24,457 nt of DNA from a virus, in the UHGV virus genome UHGV-0127207; one strand, written 5' to 3'. Below are positions 3,488 to 24,457 of this stretch, piece after piece. Position 1 is the stretch's first letter, and every line of letters begins with the position of its first letter. The translations under genes were made by a program, and so were the position numbers. The notes below the pieces were generated by a model that was given only the letters and a program-made list of their open reading frames with translations, did no database searches and was not told the DNA's origin.

Positions 3488-3582
3488 AGGGTTAGGTTGC
3501 ACGGACCTTGAATCTATGGCATCAATACGTCCTTGTGTGGTAAATGACACAAATACAATTCCAATCAAAGAAAGGTAAAAGA

Positions 3583-4113
3583 ATGAGCCATCCAATTGAT
3601 TATTACGCTATAGAAGAACACGCAAGAATAATTGAGCAATTATGCTGTTCATCTGAATTTTATTTACAGCGTATATATTCCACACAGAAAGTATATGATG
3701 GTTCTATAGTAACTGAATTTGAAATGGAGGAGTTATCGTACAACGGATGGTTGGAATATACCATTAGCAACAATCTTATTAGCCTTTGTACAAAACTACG
3801 AATTCTCCAAGACACTAGTGAACATGAGTGGAACCCAGATTACTCACCTGAGAAAGAAGCATTTGAAGAACATGAAAATATACTTTTTGTTATAGATGGT
3901 CATGTTAAAGATTCTATACGCGAATGCTGCAATAAAATTATTCACGCATTAAGTTTTGAGTTAACAAAAAAGACCGGCAAAAATGGAATAAAATATTGGG
4001 ACGGTTCTATTATTGCTTCTGGGGTTCAAAACAAAAAAAACTGGAAAATTAAAATAGACCTTTTCCCTTTTTGCCAAAGCATAAAAAGTTATTTAAGTTT
4101 ATTAAGAGCGTAA
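3583..4113 (+). CDS. Hypothetical protein of unknown function (moron inserted between tail genes S and V, opposite strand)
   Basis: ORF 3544..4113; ATG at 3583 preceded by AAAGG with 7 nt spacer; visibly A+T-rich; opposite orientation to all flanking structural genes; no motif I can recognise. Confidence 0.6.
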   Translation: MSHPIDYYAIEEHARIIEQLCCSSEFYLQRIYSTQKVYDGSIVTEFEMEELSYNGWLEYTISNNLISLCTKLRILQDTSEHEWNPDYSPEKEAFEEHENILFVIDGHVKDSIRECCNKIIHALSFELTKKTGKNGIKYWDGSIIASGVQNKKNWKIKIDLFPFCQSIKSYLSLLRA

Positions 4114-12961: not shown

Positions 12962-12982
12962 AAAACGCTCCTAAGAGCGTTT
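12962..12982. terminator. Candidate bidirectional hairpin terminator between convergent Q and the accessory operon
   Basis: AAACGCTC-CTAA-GAGCGTTT inverted repeat with T-rich stretches on both strands; the stop codon of the 239-aa gene lies in the loop. Confidence 0.35.
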
Positions 12983-13690
12983 CTGTTTACGGTTTGACTC
13001 TATTTGTTTTTTTAGCTGGATAAGCCTTTCAACTAACTCAAACACTTTTGTACTTGGATTATCAGTATCGCTAGCTTCAGCAGCCTGTAAACTTCTCTTA
13101 GCCCTAAGGACTACTTCATTTAAATCTTTTGACTCTAAAGCGTTTAGGGTTTTCTGAAAAATCCCTTTTGAGCCTTTCTCATAGTCCTTAATATATTTTC
13201 TTAACTCATTTACAATTTGATTTCCTGAACTATTACCAGGTAAATTTCTAAATGCCTTTGTCGAATAGGTATAATGTAGAAGTAACCAATATTCAAAACA
13301 AGGTACTGAATTCACAGTAAACCAAGTTGAGCTTGGTTTACTTCTCCTGATAGCGTCAAGCGCTGCCATGTAATCAGAGTGGGCATCCTTATCAATCACT
13401 ACAAAGATTTGATCATAAGGAGCCCCCTGTTCAGTCATTTTTTTATGCTGTGCTTTTGCATGACGAACAACACACATAGGACTAGAGCCACATTCTCCAG
13501 TTACATCAATTACACTTGCTGTAAGTAATTCAAAATGATTTATCAAATCCTCAAAGTAATTTGGTTCAGTTTTTTTACCCTCACAAACAATTAATATTTT
13601 AGCGAGAGGGGATTTTATTGCATTACGTCTTGCTAGATCCTTAGCCGTTTTAGGGGCACGTTTCTTTTTGAATAAATCCTCGCTTCCCAT
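12971..13690 (-). CDS. TOPRIM-like protein (RloB/AbiLii-type or DUF4435/AriB-type), second gene of a candidate anti-phage pair
   Basis: 239 aa; N-terminal ILIVCEGKKTEPNYF and downstream VVIDKDAHSD consistent with a TOPRIM E...DxD core; A+T-rich; starts 1 nt after the upstream ATPase gene stops. Confidence 0.6.
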   Translation of the reverse strand: MGSEDLFKKKRAPKTAKDLARRNAIKSPLAKILIVCEGKKTEPNYFEDLINHFELLTASVIDVTGECGSSPMCVVRHAKAQHKKMTEQGAPYDQIFVVIDKDAHSDYMAALDAIRRSKPSSTWFTVNSVPCFEYWLLLHYTYSTKAFRNLPGNSSGNQIVNELRKYIKDYEKGSKGIFQKTLNALESKDLNEVVLRAKRSLQAAEASDTDNPSTKVFELVERLIQLKKQIESNRKQKRS

Positions 13691-13691
13691 A

Positions 13692-14957
13692 TCAAATCCC
13701 CGTCAATTTCTTGATGAACGGCAATGCTCCATACCGACCGTCTAGGTATGCGGCTTCTAAATTTTCTCTTCCTTTCCTTGGACTAAAATCAGTCAATGGA
13801 TATAGATTAGTTTCACTGAGTTCATTTTTCTCACAAAACCAAACTTGATCACGTCTAAAAATGCTTTGATTCAGAATGGATGTTTCATGTGTTGAGAAAA
13901 TTAACTGCGCACCTTTTTTATTAGTAACCGGACTATTAAAAAGATTTACCAAGAAACTAACCAACTTTGGATGCAATGTATCGTGAAGCTCGTCGATTAA
14001 TAGTACATATCCATTATCGAGCGCATCTAACCATGGACCAGCTAAAGAAAAAAGCTTTTGAGTGCCATGAGATTCCTCTTCAAGAGAAAAACTTACCGGC
14101 TCACCTTTATCGTTATAATGGACAGTAGTAACATCAAAAACTTCTTTATCCTTCATATTAGAAATAACGATTTTTTTGATATCATCTGGCATATCAGATG
14201 GCAAATCATCTGGATTAAATTTTTCTTTCTTAACTAAAACATCATCAATGCCAATATCTGCAGCTTGCAAAAAATTCAAGATATCTTTCTTCATATCCTC
14301 GGTGCAGCGTTTAGCGGAGAATGTATTAGCCCATCCATTAATTCCAGAAAGTCTCAGTGTTTTTTTAAACCAAGTAAAAACAGGCTTAAGCTGCTCGCTA
14401 TTTAATTGAACAGCTGTAGACAAGAACAGGGCATTATTTCTAGTTGAACGCTGCCAAACTTGTTTTTCACCAAGTAGTGATGCGCCAAAATCCCAATCAT
14501 ATTCCTGCTTCTCTTCATCCCAAGCTCTGAAATACCACTTTTGAGGCCTTCCTTTTGGGTACGCAAAGAGCCATTCATCAATAATTCTTTCATTTGTAGC
14601 AGAAAAACCAAATTGATACCGGGTGCCCTCTGCAATAAAAGTAACTTCAAATTCAGTAGGTTTTTTAATTGAATCTGAATCAAGCTTGAAGGGGAATACG
14701 GGAACCTCTTCACCAGCCTGAGAGTTAGATGCAGAGTGGATAACTAAATCCATCATAGCCCTGACAGCCAGAAGTACATTCGACTTGCCCGCTGCATTCG
14801 CACCGTAAATAACAGCTGACTTTAGAACATTAAGGTTAACGTTTCCCTCTACTGTAAAGATATTCTCTTTTAACTCGTTACTTTTGTTAGCAATAAGTGA
14901 AAGTGTTTGTTTGTTTTTGATTGAGAGATAGTTCTCAACATTGAATTCAATAAGCAT
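13692..14957 (-). CDS. ABC/SMC-like P-loop ATPase (AAA_15/AAA_21-type), first gene of a candidate anti-phage pair
   Basis: 421 aa; Walker A GANAAGKSN, Walker B VLLIDELHD, H-loop-like FSTHET; strong RBS AGGAGGG before the ATG; A+T-rich. Confidence 0.7.
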   Translation of the reverse strand: MLIEFNVENYLSIKNKQTLSLIANKSNELKENIFTVEGNVNLNVLKSAVIYGANAAGKSNVLLAVRAMMDLVIHSASNSQAGEEVPVFPFKLDSDSIKKPTEFEVTFIAEGTRYQFGFSATNERIIDEWLFAYPKGRPQKWYFRAWDEEKQEYDWDFGASLLGEKQVWQRSTRNNALFLSTAVQLNSEQLKPVFTWFKKTLRLSGINGWANTFSAKRCTEDMKKDILNFLQAADIGIDDVLVKKEKFNPDDLPSDMPDDIKKIVISNMKDKEVFDVTTVHYNDKGEPVSFSLEEESHGTQKLFSLAGPWLDALDNGYVLLIDELHDTLHPKLVSFLVNLFNSPVTNKKGAQLIFSTHETSILNQSIFRRDQVWFCEKNELSETNLYPLTDFSPRKGRENLEAAYLDGRYGALPFIKKLTGI

Positions 14958-15135: not shown

Positions 15136-15154
15136 CTCGTATCCCCGCCACGCC
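15136..15154 (-). other. Candidate cos (cohesive end) site of the phage genome
   Basis: Minus strand reads GGCGTGGCGGGGATACGAG; the first 13 nt match my recollection of the 186/P2 19-nt cohesive end (GGCG(T/A)GGCGGGGAAAGCA(T/C)); G+C-rich motif in a non-coding A+T-rich stretch. Confidence 0.35.
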
Positions 15155-15533
15155 TGCCCGCTTTATGCAGTGGTTTTCATGCACATGCATGACATGAGCA
15201 AAAGCCCGCCAGTTCTGGCGGATCTGAGCAAAGACGATCCTCAATCGATCATGCGATTTCATGCAGCATAGTCATGCACTGTCAAGGAAGTGAAAATCCG
15301 TATCTGAATGGCCACTTGAAAAACGGATCATACGGGTTTACAAAGATGAATGTTCGCTGTGAACGGGAAGCGGAAGTTAGCTTTCAGATAACATAATCCA
15401 TATGCACGAGAACCTCTAAAATAGAATGGGACACCTAAGCGGGGTACTTACAACGATTCTTTCCAGATTCACAGTTAACACTCTGTTTGGCGTATTTTTA
15501 TTCAAATAGCAAACACCAATAAAAGGAGTTTCC

Positions 15534-15869
15534 ATGAACAATATTCCCCCTATACCACAGTTAGGAATTTATGTCTCAAAAATCGATCCCACCCTACGTA
15601 TCACTGTAACCGATGTTGATATTGTTGATGGTGAGGATGATTCTCCTGATGATGAGTTGTTTTATTTAGTCCACTGGATCGAGGGGGAAGATGAAAGTGA
15701 TATGACAGCAATGGGATTTGAGCTAGACCCAGTAGAGTGGCAGGCTTTCGTTGAATCTGAGCAATTAGTGTTTGAGCGTGATCCGTACATGGATTCAATC
15801 CCCGAAAATTCAAACTTGGCAAAGATTCGGGATTTTCTCATGAAGACTAAACAGAATGATCATTCGTAA
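15534..15869 (+). CDS. Small strongly acidic protein of unknown function (candidate DNA-mimic / anti-restriction)
   Basis: 111 aa; strong RBS AAAAGGAG before the ATG; about 26 Asp/Glu against about 7 Lys/Arg by hand count, including runs DGEDDSPDDE and EGEDESD; A+T-rich; opposite strand to flanking genes. Confidence 0.6.
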   Translation: MNNIPPIPQLGIYVSKIDPTLRITVTDVDIVDGEDDSPDDELFYLVHWIEGEDESDMTAMGFELDPVEWQAFVESEQLVFERDPYMDSIPENSNLAKIRDFLMKTKQNDHS

Positions 15870-16061: not shown

Positions 16062-16295
16062 TTAATGCAGCCAGCTGTCGTCCTCCCACACCTTCTGCAT
16101 AATTTTCATCACTTGTTTTCTTTCTTCATCCAGTTGCAGTCCGGTTAGTTCCACACCGTTAGAGCTACCTTTGCGAATGCGAATTACCGTTTTGGGATAC
16201 AGGGGGCGCAGATTGCGGTAAAGCTCGGATTCAAGGGCGTCCAGGGTAGACTGGCTAATCTTCTGCTCTTTATCGATCATTATTTCAATGCGCAT
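16062..16295 (-). CDS. dinI: DinI-family protein (DNA damage-inducible protein I homologue)
   Basis: ORF 16062..16367; ATG at 16295 preceded by GAGGTGA gives 77 aa MRIEIMIDKEQKISQSTLDALESELYRNLRPLYPKTVIRIRKGSSNGVELTGLQLDEERKQVMKIMQKVWEDDSWLH, alignable to E. coli DinI (MRIEVTIAK...ELSRR...ETWESADDWF). Confidence 0.8.
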   Translation of the reverse strand: MRIEIMIDKEQKISQSTLDALESELYRNLRPLYPKTVIRIRKGSSNGVELTGLQLDEERKQVMKIMQKVWEDDSWLH

Positions 16296-16305
16296 AAAAG
16301 TCACC

Positions 16306-16494
16306 TCAGCTGATGACATCCATTGAGCGGTTGTATTCGTGGCTTCTGATTTTTGCCATGAGTTCATCAGTCAATTCAGAAACCCACTGCAGAGCCAGCC
16401 CCTTCTCTTCATCACTACACTCACTAGCCGCTACAAGCTTAAGAAAAAAATCAATGCGCTGGAGCTTCAAAGACTCCAAAAAATAGTCCTGCAT
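16306..16494 (-). CDS. Small SOS-controlled protein, candidate antirepressor (Tum-like role)
   Basis: 62 aa; strong RBS AGGAGG; first gene after the LexA box and directly upstream of dinI; functional assignment is inference from context only. Confidence 0.45.
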   Translation of the reverse strand: MQDYFLESLKLQRIDFFLKLVAASECSDEEKGLALQWVSELTDELMAKIRSHEYNRSMDVIS

Positions 16495-16521: not shown

Positions 16522-16552
16522 CTGTATATATAACCACTGTTTATATTTACAG
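16522..16552. promoter_or_regulatory. LexA operator (SOS box) with overlapping degenerate second box, in the promoter of the small ORF-dinI operon
   Basis: CTGTTTATATTTACAG at 16537-16552 fits CTGT-N8-ACAG; overlapping CTGTATATATAACCAC at 16522-16537 is a partial box; about 45 bp upstream of the 62-aa ORF start; TTTACA -35-like hexamer further upstream on the minus strand. Confidence 0.7.
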
Positions 16553-16646: not shown

Positions 16647-19061
16647 TTAATACAGGTTCCGCCACTTATCATCTTCCTTCAGACGCTGGTTCCGATAGAA
16701 GATACGCAGGCCTGCTCCTGACGGAATACTGCCGCCGCGAAGGAGCAAATCGACTTCTTTCTCGCTGCCATCAAATCCCCTGGACTTCAGTTCATAGACG
16801 AGCTGCTGTCGCTGATGGTCTGTAATTCGCTGTTTGTAGTCTTTACGCCGTTTCGGTTTCACCTGGCGTAACCTTGCAGCCAGTTCCCGGCGCTCTTTTT
16901 TGCTCATACTGTGCAGGTAATCGTGCAACTCCTTGTCATTCATACGGGTAATATCCGTTCTGGAGTCCCCATCAGCTGATTTGTCTTTCCCTTGTTGGTT
17001 TAAATTTTCAGCAAGGGGACAGTTATTGCCACGAGTCCAAGGGGCGCAAGCGCCCTGGTCGGCTACCGCCTCCTGAACGTCAACGGCCTTACGAACCATT
17101 TTCCACTTCACTGCATGAGTGCAGATCTTGCCCTCTGCAATGGGTGACCAGATGCCATAAATACGAATGCCGTGATCGCCATAGGCGGTCGGCTCTTCGT
17201 TGATTTCATAAGCGGTTCTGATAAGGTGATATTTACGGGGAACCAGTACGCCGCCCTGCTTCATGATGTAGGTGGCAAAACAACCAGCATCAGCAGCAGC
17301 CAGGATGGCATCAAGGCGCGGGTCATCCAGTATCGGCGCACCTGCTTTTTTGTCACCCTGTTGCCTTGCCGCCTGACCAGCCAGCAAGCGAAGTTCACGG
17401 TAAGCCTGACGTCCCGGAATACCAAAGAAGCGGAACTGCTGAACACGATGCAGAGACGCCCAGGCATTAACGTATTCGGCGTTATCACGCAGGGATTTAC
17501 CCGTTTCCTTGCTGATCTCGCCAGCCAGACCACGCCCGTCAATGTTCTTACTGATGTATTTCGCGATATAGCTTGTCGGTGTTCCTTTGCGCGGGTTAAT
17601 CAGCTCAGACTTAAAGCGTGGCCCCGTGTTGTTGCCCAGCTCCTCGCGGTCTACACGGATGGCAAACTTACGCAGTAATGCAGTGATGGCGCGGCGGTCT
17701 TTTTTACGCATGAAGCACATGAGATGCCAGTGCACAGTACCGTCATGGTGCGGCTCAGCCACCCGCACGCCATACCAGCGCAACCCGGTTTTGTGCATTG
17801 CCTTACGAAATGCAGCAAACATGCCGACCATATAATCGCTGCTTTGTCTTACCGTCGCATTTGTCCAGGTCGGGTTGGGTCTGCCGTTGTTGAGCGTGGA
17901 ATGGAAACGTGACGGACAGGTGATAGTGTAGAAAACGGCGCAGTCACCGCGCATTTCCGCGATAAGCTCCAGACCTTTAACACAGGCCATCATCTCATTG
18001 CGGCGATGCGCAGGGTTGCTGCTGCTGGCGTTTACCACATCCTCCATGTCCAGCGTGTCGCCGTCTTCGTTCACCAGTTCATGAGAACGGAAAAACTCCA
18101 GCGACTTACGGCGCTGCTCACGTTTATGCATCACGGCTTCATAGCTGACATAGGGAGATGCTTTTTTGCTGACCAGGCAGACAGCACGCAACTGCTCTTC
18201 CCGCCATTCGCAACGCATCTTCCATAATTTCCGATACCACCAGTCGGCGCACAACATACGCGCCAGCGAACCCGGAATGAGTTCATAGGGCACGGGTTTA
18301 CGGCGGTTTCTTTTCCGACGGAGTTGCTCAAACGCAGGTGGGATGACATCCAGACGCAGGGTTTCCGCCGCCACCTTTTCCCATGTCTTGCGGATTTCTT
18401 CTGGCTTAACGTCATCGGTGGCATACAAATCGCCACAAGCTGCCTCAAGGCACATGCTCATATGCGCAGCTACCAGGGTGGACAGGCGTTTCACCTGATC
18501 CTGACTCATTTCAGGCAGGATCAGCAGGCCCTCCAGCCCTTGATGGCTTGCCATAAAACGGAAAGAAGCAGACAGCTGACTGTCACGTACACAATCCAGT
18601 CGCTCCAGACATGGCTTAATCGTCTCACGCAAATAGCGGGAATAAGCCTTTGGCCTGCCCAGGCTGCTGAAGTATTCGATACGTTGCATCAGCGGCTTGC
18701 TGATATGGATGGGCTGGGCGCTGACGTCCGCCAGAATGACCATGTCCGGGTTAAAACGCTGCTGTTCATGCGCTAGCTTTGCCCGGCTAATGAGCTTATC
18801 CTGCTCCATTTCGCGCTGGACAGGATCACGAGATTCATTAAAGAAATAACGCTCCCAGACCTGCTCACTCAGTGCATCGCGGCACAGCTGTTCCTGCTCA
18901 TTATCGGCAGCGTACAGAGTGATCAGGTTTAAAAGTGCAGACTCCGGAGCAACTTCCGCCGGGTCCAGATAAGGGTTAATGGCCTTTTTCGGGCCGTTCC
19001 ATGAAAATGCTGCAGCGGCCTCGTTAAAGCCGCTAGAGTTGCTCATATCGTCATGACTCAT
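16647..19061 (-). CDS. A: Replication initiation protein gpA (rolling-circle nicking endonuclease)
   Basis: 804 aa; P2/186 gpA-like by size and position at the end of the early operon; start overlaps dam stop. Confidence 0.85.
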
Positions 19062-19915
19062 ACACGCACCTCGTACACAGCAGAACTATCCACGCCACAC
19101 GAAGGATCAAATCCCACCCAGCAGCGCGCCCCGGAAACAGCAATGATTTCTGTTGCAGGTTTACTCTCGCCAGCCGACACGCCGATGCTGCGTTTTGCCT
19201 TGATGTAGTGGTGAGTGAAATTTCGATACAGCGAACGGATCAGGGATGTGTCACTGTTAGAAACAATGACTGGATGACCTTCTGATGATCGATATTCAAG
19301 AACAGATGCCAGGTGATACTGGTCATCTTCAGTGAAGCCGTTAGTGTGATAGCCGGAAAACGTACCGTCATAAGGCGGATCGCAATACACCACATCCCCC
19401 ACCTGCAGCATCGCCAGCGTTTCATCAAAGCTGGCGCAGATAAACGTTGCTTGCTGGGCTTTCTCTGCAAATGCGCGAATTTCTTTTTCAGGGAAATACG
19501 GATTTTTATAATTACCGTATGGAATGTTGAAATGCCCGCTCTTGTTATAACGACATAACCCACGGTAACCATGACGATTGAGATACAGGAAATATACCGC
19601 TTTCATGAAATCAGTAATTTCAGTGGAGTAATTAAACTCCTGCCTTATGTTGTAATAAGCCAACTCCCTGTTTGCTTCCTCAAATAAAGCTCTGGCACGA
19701 GATATAAACGCCTCGCAATCAGCAGCAACCTTTTTATAGAGGTTGATTAAATCAGGATTAATATCCGCAACAAGATAGCTGGGGTAATCCGTCTCCATCA
19801 TCACAGCACAGGAACCCGCGAAAGGTTCAACCAGTCGCGGGCCAGCAGGAAGGTGTTTTTTCAGTTCGGACATTACGGCGGTTTTATTTCCCGCCCATTT
19901 CAGGATGGTGCTCAT
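19058..19915 (-). CDS. dam: DNA adenine methyltransferase (Dam-type N6-adenine MTase)
   Basis: ORF 19058..19975; ATG at 19915 gives [11 protein letters not shown]... (Dam-type N-terminal SAM-binding motif) and contains DPPY catalytic motif; coupled to traR-like gene upstream and A downstream. Confidence 0.8.
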
Positions 19916-20139
19916 ACAGCACCCCCGTTGTAATGTTTGCCTTTCAGCTCTGCGATTTCCTGACAGGTAATGCAAAGCTGCACACCCGGAATGGCACGGC
20001 GGCGTGCTGGCGGAATTGGCGCTTCACACTCAACGCAAAGCACGCGGGACACGCCCGGCGTTTTGGCACGGGCAGCACGGATATGGCGCTGGCGTTCTTC
20101 TTCAACGCGCTGCTGTACGAGATCCATTGCATCAGCCAT
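19912..20139 (-). CDS. TraR/DksA-family C4 zinc-finger protein
   Basis: 75 aa; CVECEAPIP...17 residues...CITCQ four-cysteine arrangement; typical small gene of P2-family early operons. Confidence 0.75.
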   Translation of the reverse strand: MADAMDLVQQRVEEERQRHIRAARAKTPGVSRVLCVECEAPIPPARRRAIPGVQLCITCQEIAELKGKHYNGGAV

Positions 20140-22045: not shown

Positions 22046-22119
22046 CTCCAAAAGAACACTTCTGGTTCAACTTTAAGATCGCTTTTGGAATCTGTCAACG
22101 AATTTTGGATTTCTTTGGA
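22046..22119. promoter_or_regulatory. Immunity switch region with repeated TTTTGGA-type motifs (candidate CI operators, convergent pR/pL arrangement)
   Basis: CCAAAAG at 22047-22053 inverted relative to CTTTTGG at 22082-22088; direct copies (T/C)TTTGGA at 22083, 22103 and 22113; lies between the divergent apl and cI genes. Confidence 0.4.
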
Positions 22120-22710: not shown

Positions 22711-22902
22711 ATGCTTGGTAAGGTATTTTTTGTGGTTTTGTCATGTTCTTTGTTATTAAACCCACTAACTACCTATGCTAGAAATTATCCCTGCTCAGGG
22801 AAAAAGGGAGGTGTTTCTCACTGTACCTCAGATGGCAAATTCGTTTGCAATGATGGAACTATTAGTAAATCCAAAAAAATCTGTACTAAAAACTCACGAT
22901 AA
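22711..22902 (+). CDS. Small secreted cysteine-rich protein (moron in the cI-int operon)
   Basis: 63 aa; strong RBS GGGAGGAAACT-ATG; N-terminal signal peptide [23 protein letters not shown]; mature part basic with four Cys; A+T-rich. Confidence 0.55.
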
Positions 22903-23090
22903 CTTTTGCTTTTATATCTGCGTCTAAAATAAAAATGAGCCGCAGGTTAACCGCAAAAGTTACATGCTCACATAGCAAAAAGAATAGCCAACTTCATGAT
23001 GGCTTCAGTGAGATGTATGGTCGTAGGATTTCATACATTGACACTGGTTATACATACAGTAAAAATGCTCTCTACTGGAGGGCATTTTTT

Positions 23091-24143
23091 ATGGCAGTAC
23101 GAAAACTCACCACAGGGAAATGGCTTTGCGAATGTTACCCCGCCGGACGTAGTGGGCGTCGTGTGCGTAAACAATTCGCCACCAAAGGCGAAGCTCTGGC
23201 TTTTGAGCGCCACACGATGGAAGAAACCGAAGCAAAGCCCTGGCTGGGTGAATCAGTGGATCGTCGAACACTGAAAGACGTAGTTGAGCTATGGTTCAAA
23301 CTACATGGTAAATCTCTGACAGCTGGGCAGCATGTCTATGACAAATTGCTGTTGATGGTTGACGCTCTGGGTAATCCTCTTGCAACCGATCTCACCTCTA
23401 AAATGTTTGCCCACTATCGAGATAAACGCCTGACAGGCGAGATCTACTTCAGCGAGAAATGGAAGAAAGGAGCAAGCCCGGTCACCATTAACCTGGAGCA
23501 AAGCTATCTAAGTAGTGTTTTTAGCGAACTATCCCGTCTGGGCGAATGGTCGTATCCGAACCCACTGGAGAACATGCGAAAATTCACCATCGCAGAAAAA
23601 GAGATGGCATGGCTTACCCATGAGCAGATTGTTGAATTGCTGGCTGATTGCAAACGTCAGGACCCAATTCTGGCACTGGTAGTTAAGATATGCTTAAGCA
23701 CAGGCGCACGCTGGCGTGAAGCCGTAAATCTTACCCGCTCACAGGTGACCAAATACCGAATTACCTTTGTCAGAACGAAGGGGAAGAAAAACAGAAGCAT
23801 CCCTATCAGTAAAGAGCTTTACGAAGAGATCATGGCGCTTGATGGGTTCAATTTCTTTACAGACTACTATTTTCAATTTTTATCCGTGATGGAAAAAACG
23901 TCTATCGTGCTCCCTCGCGGTCAACTCACACACGTTCTGCGCCATACGTTTGCGGCGCACTTCATGATGTCGGGTGGAAACATTCTCGCCTTACAAAAAA
24001 TTCTCGGACACCACGATATAAAAATGACTATGCGTTACGCACATCTGGCACCAGATCATCTGGAAACGGCGCTCCGTTTCAATCCTCTGGCAACGCTGCC
24101 AAGTGGCGACAAAGTGGCGGCAGCGGTTGGCATTACCCCGTAA
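23091..24143 (+). CDS. int: Tyrosine integrase (P2/186 family)
   Basis: ORF 22935..24143; ATG at 23091 (MAVRKLTTGKWLCECYPAGR...) taken as start; C-terminal catalytic region HVLRHTFAAHFMMSGGNILALQKILGHHDIKMTMRYAHLAPDHL with catalytic Tyr in MRYAHL. Confidence 0.9.
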   Translation: MAVRKLTTGKWLCECYPAGRSGRRVRKQFATKGEALAFERHTMEETEAKPWLGESVDRRTLKDVVELWFKLHGKSLTAGQHVYDKLLLMVDALGNPLATDLTSKMFAHYRDKRLTGEIYFSEKWKKGASPVTINLEQSYLSSVFSELSRLGEWSYPNPLENMRKFTIAEKEMAWLTHEQIVELLADCKRQDPILALVVKICLSTGARWREAVNLTRSQVTKYRITFVRTKGKKNRSIPISKELYEEIMALDGFNFFTDYYFQFLSVMEKTSIVLPRGQLTHVLRHTFAAHFMMSGGNILALQKILGHHDIKMTMRYAHLAPDHLETALRFNPLATLPSGDKVAAAVGITP

Positions 24144-24228: not shown

Positions 24229-24457
24229 GTTATCTAAAACTTATCTACTACCCTGCAACCCTCTCAACCATCCTCAAAATCTCCTCGCGCGATAGCGGCT
24301 TACGGTCGGTGACAAAATGCAGCGTCATCCCCTCAATAAACGCATCAAGCGCGCGGGCGGTTCCGGGTTCAAACCATTGTTCGAGCGTTTGCTGACTGCG
24401 CTGCACTGAGAGATCCCCTCATAATTTCCCCAAAACGTAACCATGTGTGAATAGATT

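What the first reader, a model, noticed from the sequence alone, without database searches (positions are those of the whole stretch)
19058..19915. Orphan Dam-type adenine methyltransferase embedded in the early replication operon
A methyltransferase with the KWAGNK N-terminal motif and DPPY, with no adjacent restriction gene, is translationally coupled upstream to the TraR-like gene and downstream to replication gene A (overlapping start/stop codons). Phage-borne orphan methyltransferases can protect against host restriction or tune replication and gene expression.
Basis: partly seen in the sequence, partly recalled or inferred. Interest (0 to 1): 0.4.

Follow-up and report, generated by a model that had tools for sequence, protein, structure and literature searches.

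The report
Prophage Dam methylase, ordinary and known
This is a real, intact Dam-type DNA adenine methylase carried as optional cargo just upstream of the replication gene of a P2/186-like prophage; the same gene sits in about a quarter of complete E. coli genomes and is routinely annotated, so it is ordinary.

Summary
Window 19058-19915 (minus strand) is a 285-aa ORF with KWAGNK (aa 6-11) and DPPY (aa 179-182). ATGA stop/start overlaps join it to the TraR/DksA zinc-finger gene upstream and to replication gene A downstream.

It is a full-length D12-class Dam: Pfam PF02086 at 1.9e-76, TIGR00571 at 322 bits, and 46% identity to E. coli Dam. Six of the seven EcoDam GATC-contact residues are kept, including the key Arg124 equivalent. 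No restriction gene is nearby.

The window is a 186/Fels-2-like Peduoviridae prophage. The gene lies in the CI-repressed early lytic operon.

It is already known. The gene occurs at 90% identity or more in 1239 of 5426 complete E. coli genomes and in many Klebsiella and Salmonella phages, always annotated as DNA adenine methylase.

Comparison of 240 related loci shows it is facultative cargo in a mosaic slot between TraR and A. That slot also holds C5-methylases, DpdA-like transglycosylases and PAPS-reductase-like genes. Coupling into A is a property of the slot and is documented for 186 orf84.

The most likely role is topping up GATC methylation of rapidly replicating phage DNA; activity was not tested. 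A possible link to a conserved GATC pair near cos did not hold up. Interest is low.

The parts
19058..19915 (-). Dam-family orphan DNA N6-adenine methyltransferase CDS (285 aa plus stop)
   Evidence: ORF list. PF02086 1.9e-76, profile positions 1-253 of 253. TIGR00571 321.9 bits against a cutoff of 114.85. EcoDam PDB 2g1p/4gol E~2e-74. PADLOC oMTase 371 bits.
19883..19900 (-). Codons for KWAGNK (aa 6-11), the N-terminal motif. Lys6 is equivalent to EcoDam Lys9, which contacts the first base pair.
   Evidence: Invariant in 15 clade members. Role of K9 from PMC4417163.
19505..19579 (-). Codons for the DNA-recognition hairpin loop [25 protein letters not shown] (aa 113-137)
   Evidence: Aligned to EcoDam [25 protein letters not shown]. 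Y119, L122, R124, P134 and Y138 are kept, and N120 is replaced by R118. The loop contact residues are invariant in the clade.
19370..19381 (-). Codons for the catalytic motif IV DPPY (aa 179-182); they happen to contain a GATC site at 19378
   Evidence: Invariant in all aligned Dams, including T4 and P1/P7.
19912..19915 (-). ATGA overlap: stop of the TraR/DksA-like gene and start of dam
   Evidence: Read from the sequence. The junction GGAGGTGCTGTATGA is conserved in 50+ related loci whatever the upstream gene is.
19922..19926 (-). Shine-Dalgarno-like GGGGG, 6 nt upstream of the dam ATG, inside the TraR-like ORF
   Evidence: GGAGG or GGGGG in relatives.
19058..19061 (-). ATGA overlap: stop of dam and start of replication gene A
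   Evidence: Read from the sequence. ATGA is present at all 41 cargo-to-A junctions examined. The same overlap is annotated in phage records.
19067..19072 (-). Shine-Dalgarno GAGGTG for gene A, encoded by the last codons of dam (..E-V-R..)
   Evidence: The C-terminal E/G-V-R/Q is semi-conserved in the clade.
19912..20139 (-). Upstream neighbour: TraR/DksA C4 zinc-finger protein (75 aa; homologous to the DksA-like zinc-finger gene of the 186 early operon)
   Evidence: PF01258 4.4e-11; 186 annotation.
16647..19061 (-). Downstream neighbour: rolling-circle replication initiator gpA (804 aa)
   Evidence: PF05840 1.5e-126; annotated as replication endonuclease in relatives.
22070..22098 (-). Candidate pR-type early lytic promoter (TTGACA-17-TAAAGT) upstream of apl/cox, facing the cI gene; tentative
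   Evidence: Consensus scan only. The position matches pR of 186.

Best explanation
The gene encodes an active, GATC-specific, S-adenosylmethionine-dependent N6-adenine DNA methyltransferase, a phage paralogue of host Dam with no partner endonuclease. It is optional cargo in the slot between the TraR-like zinc-finger gene and replication gene A of a 186/Fels-2-type P2-like prophage.

In the lysogen it is silent, because the early lytic promoter pR is repressed by CI. After induction or infection it is transcribed with the replication genes. It is translated by ribosomes passing from the TraR-like ORF, and those ribosomes in turn pass on to gene A. The methylase therefore appears exactly when gpA starts rolling-circle replication.

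Its most likely job is to supplement the limiting host Dam so that the roughly one GATC per 280 bp of the rapidly amplified phage DNA is fully methylated before packaging. Progeny DNA would then be safe from GATC-cutting restriction enzymes in the next host. It would also be spared MutH nicking or SeqA binding of hemimethylated DNA in the current one.

Shown here: identity, intactness, conserved contact residues, operon position, overlaps, and the facultative, mosaic nature of the slot. Inferred: GATC specificity, timing of expression, coupling, and the biological benefit.
For: Family and fold:
- Full-length matches to PF02086, TIGR00571, and the E. coli Dam structures at about 46-50% identity.
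- It scores below the host-Dam equivalog cutoff (289 against 441 bits), so it is a paralogue and not the chromosomal dam.

Specificity:
- The EcoDam residues that read GATC are R124, L122, P134, Y119, K9 and Y138 (roles from PMC4417163).
- All are present here as R122, L120, P132, Y117, K6 and Y136, and all are invariant in 15 homologues of 70-93% identity.
- Only N120 differs (R118). That position also varies among proven GATC enzymes: N in P1/P7 and S in T4.

Purifying selection: 120+ full-length homologues across Enterobacterales.

Orphan status: the neighbours are TraR and gpA, and the best PADLOC model is oMTase.

Operon:
- Same-strand string from apl to A with a pR-like promoter and no above-chance terminators.
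- The 186 record annotates the homologous string as the CI-repressed early lytic operon, with non-essential genes between the zinc-finger gene and A.
- It also notes that translation of the upstream ORF is needed for A.

Facultative DNA-modification cargo:
- In 77 loci with this A type, the slot is Dam alone (40), DUF3850+Dam (12), empty (8), Dam+DpdA-like (8), Dam+PAPS reductase (5) or Dam+C5 methylase (1).
- Salmonella phage SEN5, of another genus, has Dam then Dcm then A.

Literature:
- Host Dam is limiting for high-copy DNA (bioRxiv 10.1101/2020.06.22.160242).
- Orphan phage methylases are typically expressed only on exit from the cell and protect exported DNA (PMC12707154).
- A phage Dam protects against DpnII (PMC4190342).
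- A prophage Dam homologue in E. coli EC958 was transcriptionally silent in the lysogen (PMC4659465).
Against: No methylation was measured; specificity rests on homology.

R118 replaces a base-contacting Asn, N135 replaces the phosphate-contacting R137, and the loop after DPPY is 5 residues shorter than in EcoDam. These changes could alter flank preference, processivity or fidelity.

All known hosts (E. coli, Klebsiella, Salmonella) already have Dam. GATC-cutting restriction systems should therefore be rare in this host range, so the benefit of a second Dam is not obvious.

Eight of 77 close relatives do without it, so any benefit is conditional.

GATC is neither avoided nor enriched in the window beyond what other 4-mer palindromes show (87 observed against 109 expected, ratio 0.80).

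A GATC-methylating phage enzyme can also be a liability, because Dam overexpression triggers retron-Sen2 abortive infection.
Confidence: 0.7

Rival explanations
1. The methylase serves mainly the phage's own development: methylation of specific GATC sites gates a step such as cos recognition and packaging (as Dam methylation of pac does in P1), excision, or promoter activity.
For: Two GATC sites 11 nt apart (window 15236 and 15247, with a third at 15221) lie 67-93 nt from the cohesive end, next to repeated ATGCA motifs. They are present in 73 of 76 loci of this A clade. In the Dam-carrying Gegevirus phi13.6 the spacer between them has diverged while the GATCs are kept. The Dam-less P2-type and 186-type clades have 0-1 (rarely 2) GATC in the same 150 nt. 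P1 needs Dam methylation at pac (PMC12707154). SopEPhi excision is favoured by Dam (PMC7380047).
Against: Nine of 11 Dam-less members of the same clade keep the GATC pair. The GATC columns are no better conserved than the rest of the 150-nt cos block. The Dam+Dcm phage SEN5 has no GATC within 240 nt of its cos. The association therefore rests on about three clades and is confounded by descent. Host Dam would methylate these sites anyway.
Confidence: 0.12
2. The enzyme has a relaxed or shifted specificity (for example GATN, NATC or a broader A-containing motif), giving broad anti-restriction cover rather than GATC top-up.
For: N120 is replaced by R118, R137 by N135, and there is a 5-residue deletion after DPPY relative to EcoDam. 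The EC958 paper notes that no recognition site had been determined for close homologues of its prophage Dam-like enzyme. It also notes that prophage methylases are often promiscuous (PMC4659465). The slot's other cargoes are DNA modifiers with anti-restriction logic.
Against: R124, the main discriminator of the fourth base pair, is invariant, as are L122 and P134, which read the third. Overall identity to EcoDam is 46-50% over the whole length. Position 120 already varies among proven GATC enzymes.
Confidence: 0.1
3. The ORF matters chiefly as a translated leader that delivers ribosomes to gene A, and the methylase activity is incidental or dispensable.
For: The ATGA overlap and an in-ORF Shine-Dalgarno are kept at every cargo-to-A junction regardless of which gene occupies the slot. 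The 186 record states that translation to the end of orf84 appears necessary for A translation.
Against: In Dam-less relatives the TraR-like gene itself abuts A with a TGATG overlap, so no extra ORF is needed. A mere leader would not keep every catalytic and DNA-contact residue invariant across 70-93% identical homologues.
Confidence: 0.05
4. The gene is a decaying, inactive relic in a defective prophage.
For: A few database homologues are truncated or fused to gpD-like sequence (P0008, P0009 and P0102). This shows that prophage decay occurs at this locus in some genomes.
Against: The window copy is full length with all motifs. The surrounding prophage has intact structural, lysis, replication and regulatory genes collinear with isolated, plaque-forming or induced phages.
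Confidence: 0.03

Closest known systems
Dam of Felsduovirus/Peduoviridae prophages (e.g. Salmonella phage RE-2010 gp10, Klebsiella phage 4LV2017, Escherichia phage vB_EcoM-813R9; RefSeq 'DNA adenine methylase' WP_029364117 in E. coli ML35)
   Same: The same gene: 91-94% amino-acid identity in vB_EcoM-813R9, RE-2010 and Klebsiella phage ST11-VIM1phi8.4. The position is the same (TraR/DksA, then Dam, then A), with the same 4-nt overlaps.
   Different: Nothing of substance. Only the neighbouring cargo in other slots differs (AbiL here, against AIPR, KAP NTPase, retron Ec67 and others in relatives).
Escherichia coli chromosomal Dam (EcoDam, PDB 2G1P)
   Same: D12/alpha-class architecture along the whole length, at 46% identity. 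KWAG(G/N)K, ADIN and DPPY are present, as are the GATC-reading residues K9, Y119, L122, R124, P134 and Y138.
   Different: It is a paralogue, falling below the NF008152 equivalog cutoff. N120 is replaced by R and R137 by N, there is a 5-residue deletion after DPPY, and a semi-conserved ~25-residue C-terminal tail is absent from EcoDam. Expression is phage-controlled rather than constitutive.
Phage P1/P7 Dam (Dmt) and T4 Dam
   Same: Phage-borne orphan GATC methylases of the same Pfam family; 36% identity (P7 C-terminal domain) and 22% (T4). P1's enzyme shows that a phage Dam can serve packaging (PMC12707154).
   Different: P1 Dmt is a two-domain late protein with pac-site GATC clusters. T4 Dam acts on hydroxymethylcytosine DNA. 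The present enzyme is single-domain, early, and has no demonstrated tie to packaging.
Phage 186 orf84 (CP84, PAPS-reductase-like) and P2 orf83: occupants of the same pre-A slot
   Same: Same position immediately upstream of and overlapping gene A in the early lytic operon. They are non-essential, and there is documented dependence of A translation on translation of the upstream ORF.
   Different: They are unrelated proteins (PF01507 and DUF5405), not methyltransferases.

Membership tests
Dam family / D12-class (alpha-group) N6-adenine DNA methyltransferases | Full-length match to the family profile above the curated threshold | tested here: met
   PF02086 257.6 bits (cutoff 22), profile positions 1-253 of 253. 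TIGR00571 321.9 bits (cutoff 114.85).
Dam family / D12-class (alpha-group) N6-adenine DNA methyltransferases | Catalytic motif IV (D/N)PP(Y/F) | tested here: met
   DPPY at aa 179-182. Invariant in the clade and in the EcoDam, P7 and T4 alignment.
Dam family / D12-class (alpha-group) N6-adenine DNA methyltransferases | AdoMet-binding motif I (FxGxG) and the acidic residue of motif II | tested here: met
   EPFAGSCAV aligns to EcoDam EPFVGAGSV. F32 and G34 are invariant, and the second Gly is Cys here, as it is Leu in active T4 Dam (FCGGL). D51 of ADIN is invariant.
GATC-specific Dam enzymes | Residues that read GATC in the EcoDam-DNA complex (K9, Y119, N120, L122, R124, P134, Y138) | tested here: met
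   Six of seven are identical (K6, Y117, L120, R122, P132, Y136), and N120 is replaced by R118. Position 120 also varies in T4 (S). Roles are from PMC4417163. This is homology-based, so specificity itself remains inferred.
GATC-specific Dam enzymes | Demonstrated m6A at GATC (DpnI-sensitive and MboI/DpnII-resistant DNA; methylome) | not testable with these tools
   No experimental data for this protein or a close relative were found in the searchable literature. The EC958 prophage Dam homologue gave no signal because it was not expressed.
Host chromosomal Dam orthologue (NCBIfam NF008152 equivalog) | Score above the equivalog cutoff | tested here: not met
   289.5 bits against a cutoff of 441. 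It lies in a prophage, not next to damX/rpe as in K-12. It is therefore a phage paralogue, not the host dam.
Orphan (solitary) methyltransferase | No cognate restriction endonuclease in the neighbourhood | tested here: met
   The flanking genes are TraR/DksA and gpA. The other window genes are P2-type structural, lysis and regulatory genes plus AbiL. The best PADLOC model is oMTase PDLC03729 at 371 bits.
Translationally coupled gene in the 186-type early lytic operon | Same-strand position between pR and A, with stop/start overlaps and in-ORF ribosome-binding sites | tested here: met
   ATGA overlaps at both ends and SD-like runs. Conserved in relatives. Operon layout matches 186.
Translationally coupled gene in the 186-type early lytic operon | A translation actually depends on translation of the upstream ORF | not testable with these tools
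   Supported only by the precedent noted in the 186 record for orf84. No conserved occluding RNA structure was found at the TraR/Dam junction (covariation term -0.68), and the Dam/A junction folds no better than shuffles (z -0.53).
P1-type Dam-gated packaging site | Cluster of GATC sites in the terminase recognition region that co-occurs with the phage Dam | tested here: inconclusive
   A GATC pair 11 nt apart near cos is present in 73 of 76 loci of this clade, against 0-1 GATC in Dam-less P2 and 186 clades. However, it is kept in 9 of 11 Dam-less members of the same clade, is not specially conserved, and is absent in the Dam+ phage SEN5.

The most novel reading that the evidence does not exclude
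The TraR-to-A slot of P2-like phages is a dedicated, plug-in hotspot for DNA-modification genes: Dam, C5 methylase, DpdA-like 7-deazaguanine transglycosylase and PAPS-reductase-like enzymes. Each cassette carries its own SD-plus-ATGA junction, so that synthesis of the cis-acting replication initiator gpA is translationally tied to synthesis of the DNA modifier and replication never outruns modification. In this clade Dam would additionally act on a conserved GATC pair beside cos to time packaging, as in P1.
Probability: 0.1. Interest if true: 0.45.

Novelty: already known. Interest (0 to 1): 0.12.

Why it matters
The gene in itself changes little. It is a correctly recognisable, widely annotated prophage Dam.

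It is a reminder that about a quarter of E. coli genomes carry a second, normally silent GATC methylase that switches on with prophage induction. That can matter for methylome interpretation, for DpnI/MboI-based assays on induced cultures, and for defence systems that sense Dam activity, such as retron-Sen2.

The comparative by-product may be more useful. The slot in front of gene A collects DNA-modification enzymes across several genera of P2-like phages. It could serve as a practical place to look for new anti-restriction functions.

Tried and rejected
1. GATC statistics. The window has 87 sites against 109 expected (ratio 0.80), within the range of other 4-mer palindromes (0.49-1.02). There is no signal of avoidance or enrichment.

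2. Dam-cos link.
- I followed a cluster of three GATCs 67-93 nt from the cohesive end.
- I then collected 240 loci anchored on gpA.
- The pair is clade-wide and contrasts with the Dam-less P2 and 186 clades.
- However, it persists in Dam-less members of the same clade, is no better conserved than its surroundings, and is missing in the Dam+ phage SEN5.
- I rejected it as evidence and kept it only as a low-probability lead.

3. RNA structure for coupling.
- The TraR/Dam junction folds unusually well in the window (z -4.9).
- An 18-sequence alignment gives a different, weak consensus with almost no covariation.
- The Dam/A junction is unremarkable (z -0.53).
- There is no support for a conserved occluding hairpin.

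4. Linking the gene to M.EcoMIV of E. coli EC958. The region I fetched by guess contained no prophage, so the identity of that enzyme with this family is unverified. I cite the paper only as an analogy.

5. The review of phage orphan methyltransferases (Murphy et al. 2013) could not be read by DOI or by PMC id.

6. Literature searches for experimental work on a P2-like phage Dam found none.

7. Structure prediction and fold search were not run. With 46-50% identity to a solved structure over the full length they would add nothing.
Full report
**Observation**

The ORF list and the raw sequence show a 285-codon ORF on the minus strand, running from the ATG at 19915 to the TGA at 19058-19060. Its translation starts [11 protein letters not shown] and carries DPPY at residues 179-182.

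The stop codon of the preceding 75-aa ORF (19912-20139) overlaps the start as ATGA. The ORF's own stop overlaps the ATG of the 804-aa ORF at 16647-19061 in the same way.

**What the protein is**

- It matches the Pfam D12-class N6-adenine methyltransferase profile end to end (PF02086, E=1.9e-76).
- It matches the NCBIfam Dam subfamily model at 322 bits against a cutoff of 115. It stays below the cutoff of the model for the chromosomal Dam orthologue (289 against 441 bits).
- Its best match among solved structures is E. coli Dam (2G1P, 4GOL and others; E~2e-74). Identity to EcoDam is 46% in a direct alignment.
- The best PADLOC model is 'orphan methyltransferase'.

The structural literature on EcoDam assigns GATC reading as follows (PMC4417163):
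- R124 reads the fourth base pair and is the strongest determinant.
- L122 and P134 read the third base pair.
- Y119 intercalates.
- N120 makes a base hydrogen bond.
- K9 and Y138 read the first base pair.

In the window protein these positions are R122, L120, P132, Y117, R118, K6 and Y136. Six of seven are identical, and all are invariant in fifteen homologues of 70-93% identity from at least ten enterobacterial genera.

The one change, Asn to Arg, falls at a position that is Asn in P1/P7 Dam and Ser in T4 Dam, both GATC enzymes. Other differences from EcoDam are R137 to N135, a five-residue deletion after DPPY, and a semi-conserved C-terminal tail of about 25 residues. I conclude that this is an intact Dam paralogue that very probably methylates GATC. 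Activity itself cannot be tested here.

**Genomic setting**

The window is a P2-like prophage of the 186/Fels-2 type (Peduoviridae). It is 94-96% identical over the regulatory and replication part to Escherichia phage vB_EcoM-813R9, to Klebsiella phage 4LV2017 and to many Klebsiella prophages. It is collinear with prophages in E. coli chromosomes.

Reading right to left on the minus strand, the early region contains:
- a pR-like promoter
- apl/cox
- cII (PF06892)
- a small ORF
- DUF5347 (annotated as gpB in one record)
- DUF2732
- the TraR/DksA zinc finger
- dam
- A (PF05840)

cI and int are divergent. No above-chance terminators interrupt the string.

The reference annotation of phage 186 describes the homologous string as the early lytic operon from pR, repressed by CI and Apl. 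It lists several 'not essential' genes between the zinc-finger gene and A. It also notes that translation to the end of the ORF preceding A 'appears necessary for translation of A protein'. Coupling in this phage remains an inference.

**How common it is**

- The 858-bp gene is found in 1239 of 5426 complete E. coli genomes. In all but 11 of the 1242 matching records identity is 90% or higher. In the records listed it is annotated 'DNA adenine methylase' between a TraR/DksA or DUF3850 gene and the replication endonuclease.
- The protein search returned more than 6500 relatives. The closest cluster alone stands for 4038 sequences.
- Phage records with the same gene include RE-2010 (Felsduovirus), 4LV2017, and the Gegevirus phi13.6.
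- In Yersinia phage MLG42 the gene is present but unannotated.

This is a known, routinely annotated gene.

**The slot**

I collected 240 IMG/VR loci anchored on gpA, 80 each for the window-type, P2-type and 186-type A proteins. I then scored what lies between the zinc-finger gene and A.

| A type | Slot content (number of loci) |
|---|---|
| Window-type (77 scorable loci) | Dam alone (40); DUF3850 then Dam (12); nothing (8); Dam plus a DpdA-like protein (8); Dam plus a PAPS-reductase-domain protein (5); Dam plus a C5 cytosine methylase (1); a few other combinations |
| 186-type | No Dam; DUF5405, an exonuclease subunit, DUF3850, PAPS reductase or DpdA-like genes |
| P2-type | Uniformly DUF5405 |

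The family assignments come from Pfam and PHROGs: PF00145, PF01507, PF12961, and phrog_887 'queuine tRNA-ribosyltransferase'. Salmonella phage SEN5, from another genus, has Dam then Dcm then A.

Every cargo-to-A junction keeps ATGA and a Shine-Dalgarno sequence. Where the slot is empty, the zinc-finger gene abuts A as TGATG. At the upstream side the sequence GGAGGTGCTGTATGA travels with dam whichever gene precedes it.

Dam is thus a facultative cassette in a mosaic slot that repeatedly houses DNA-modification enzymes. Coupling into A is a property of the slot, not of Dam.

**Mechanism**

The best-supported account is as follows:
1. CI keeps the gene silent in the lysogen.
2. On induction or infection it is made together with gpA.
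3. It supplements host Dam while the genome is amplified.

The window has 87 GATC sites in 24.5 kb. Several published observations fit this account:
- Endogenous Dam is limiting for high-copy DNA.
- Orphan methylases of mobile elements are typically expressed only on exit and protect exported DNA.
- A phage Dam protects against DpnII.
- A prophage Dam homologue in EC958 was not transcribed in the lysogen. I could not verify that it belongs to this family.

The company Dam keeps in the slot (Dcm-type, DpdA-like) points the same way. Weaknesses are that all known hosts are Dam-positive and that some close relatives lack the gene. In addition, Dam activity can itself trigger a retron defence.

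**Rivals**

A developmental or packaging role was the most interesting alternative.
- The cohesive end maps to 15136-15154 by alignment to the P2 and 186 termini.
- Three GATCs lie 67-93 nt to its A-proximal side, two of them 11 nt apart, among ATGCA repeats.
- The pair is present in 73 of 76 loci of this clade, against 0-1 GATC (rarely 2) in the Dam-less P2 and 186 clades.
- It survives spacer divergence in phi13.6, which carries Dam.

Against this:
- Nine of eleven Dam-less clade members keep the pair.
- The GATC columns are no more conserved than the whole 150-nt block.
- SEN5, which has Dam, has no GATC near cos.

I rate this rival at about 0.12.

The other rivals are less likely, for these reasons:
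- Altered specificity (0.10): the contact residues are conserved.
- A pure leader-ORF role (0.05): the catalytic residues are invariant, and empty slots still couple TraR to A.
- A dead relic (0.03): the gene and prophage are intact.

**Verdict**

The finding is real and correctly interpreted. It describes an already known, very common prophage gene whose general class (phage orphan Dam) is textbook. Interest is 0.12.

The only mildly new output is comparative. The pre-A slot is a recurrent home for DNA modifiers with cassette-like junctions. I offer this as the most novel reading not excluded (probability about 0.1).

Noticed in passing
window 12971-14957 (minus strand): A two-gene AbiL-type anti-phage system sits between the portal gene Q and cos. 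AbiLi is an AAA_21 ATPase (421 aa; PADLOC 335 bits). AbiLii is an RloB-like protein (239 aa; PADLOC 102 bits, PF13707). Relatives carry AIPR, KAP NTPase, retron Ec67 or other cargo at this position, so it is the variable defence hotspot of P2-like phages.
   Followed up: partly
window 15136-15154 (cos) and 15221, 15236, 15247 (GATC): The 19-nt cohesive end (rc GGCGTGGCGGGGATACGAG) was located by alignment to the P2 and 186 termini. Three GATC sites lie 67-93 nt away among ATGCA repeats. The 11-nt-spaced pair is conserved in 73 of 76 loci of this clade and absent from the P2 and 186 clades. It is also kept in Dam-less clade members and absent in the Dam+ phage SEN5.
   Followed up: yes
window 16537-16552 and 16062-16367 (minus strand): A perfect LexA-box consensus (CTGT-N8-ACAG) lies upstream of the ORF that holds a DinI-like/Tum-like gene (PF06183). 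This resembles the SOS-controlled p95-tum antirepressor module of phage 186, so the prophage is probably SOS-inducible.
   Followed up: partly
L039:3355-4176, L048:6369-7010, L064:4998-6182, L037:4788-5798, L077:5682-7001, L072:6168-6578; L254:26561-28550: In relatives, the slot between the TraR-like gene and gene A holds other genes next to or instead of Dam. These are DpdA-like 'queuine tRNA-ribosyltransferase' proteins (phrog_887), a C5 cytosine methylase, PAPS-reductase-domain proteins, or DUF3850/ASCH. Salmonella phage SEN5 has Dam then Dcm then A. The slot looks like a DNA-modification cargo hotspot.
   Followed up: partly
window 19912-19929 and 50+ related loci: The junction GGAGGTGCTGTATGA (SD, last codons and stop of the upstream ORF, and the dam ATG) is conserved whether the upstream gene is TraR-like, DUF3850 or something else. 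The dam cassette therefore supplies the C-terminal codons and stop of whatever precedes it, which marks a likely recombination boundary.
   Followed up: partly
window 19865-19985 (minus strand): RNA folding of the TraR/Dam junction is much more stable than shuffles (z -4.9). The dam SD is paired and the AUG lies in a loop. The structure is not conserved, however, and shows almost no covariation in 18 relatives.
   Followed up: yes
window 22711-22902 (plus strand): A 63-aa ORF with a signal-peptide-like N-terminus (NCBIfam PRK10040-type 'hypothetical protein', 116 bits) lies between cI and int. Phage vB_EcoM-813R9 has a 1.7-kb 'chromosome segregation ATPase' gene at the same place, so this is another variable cargo position.
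   Followed up: no
L005:4399-5244 (Yersinia phage vB_YpM_MLG42, PP599993.1): An intact Dam homologue (74% identity over 284 aa) lies in an unannotated 845-bp gap upstream of gene A in this GenBank record. This is a missed gene call.
   Followed up: partly
proteins P0008, P0009, P0102: Some E. coli database entries fuse 72-90% of this Dam to a Phage_GPD (late control D) domain. They probably reflect internal deletions in decaying prophages or assembly joins.
   Followed up: no
window 3544-4113 (plus strand) and 15534-15869 (plus strand): Two ORFs have no Pfam family. One is a 189-aa ORF on the opposite strand amid baseplate and tail genes (a hypothetical protein is annotated at the same place in E. 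coli ML35). The other is a 111-aa ORF between cos and the DinI-like gene (phrog_17127, unknown function).
   Followed up: no
window 22935-24143 and 24406-24457: The longest integrase ORF (402 aa) is about 50 codons longer than the integrase annotated in relatives (350 aa), so the true start is probably internal. The last 52 nt of the window fall outside every E. coli match, suggesting that the host flank is not E. coli-like.
   Followed up: no
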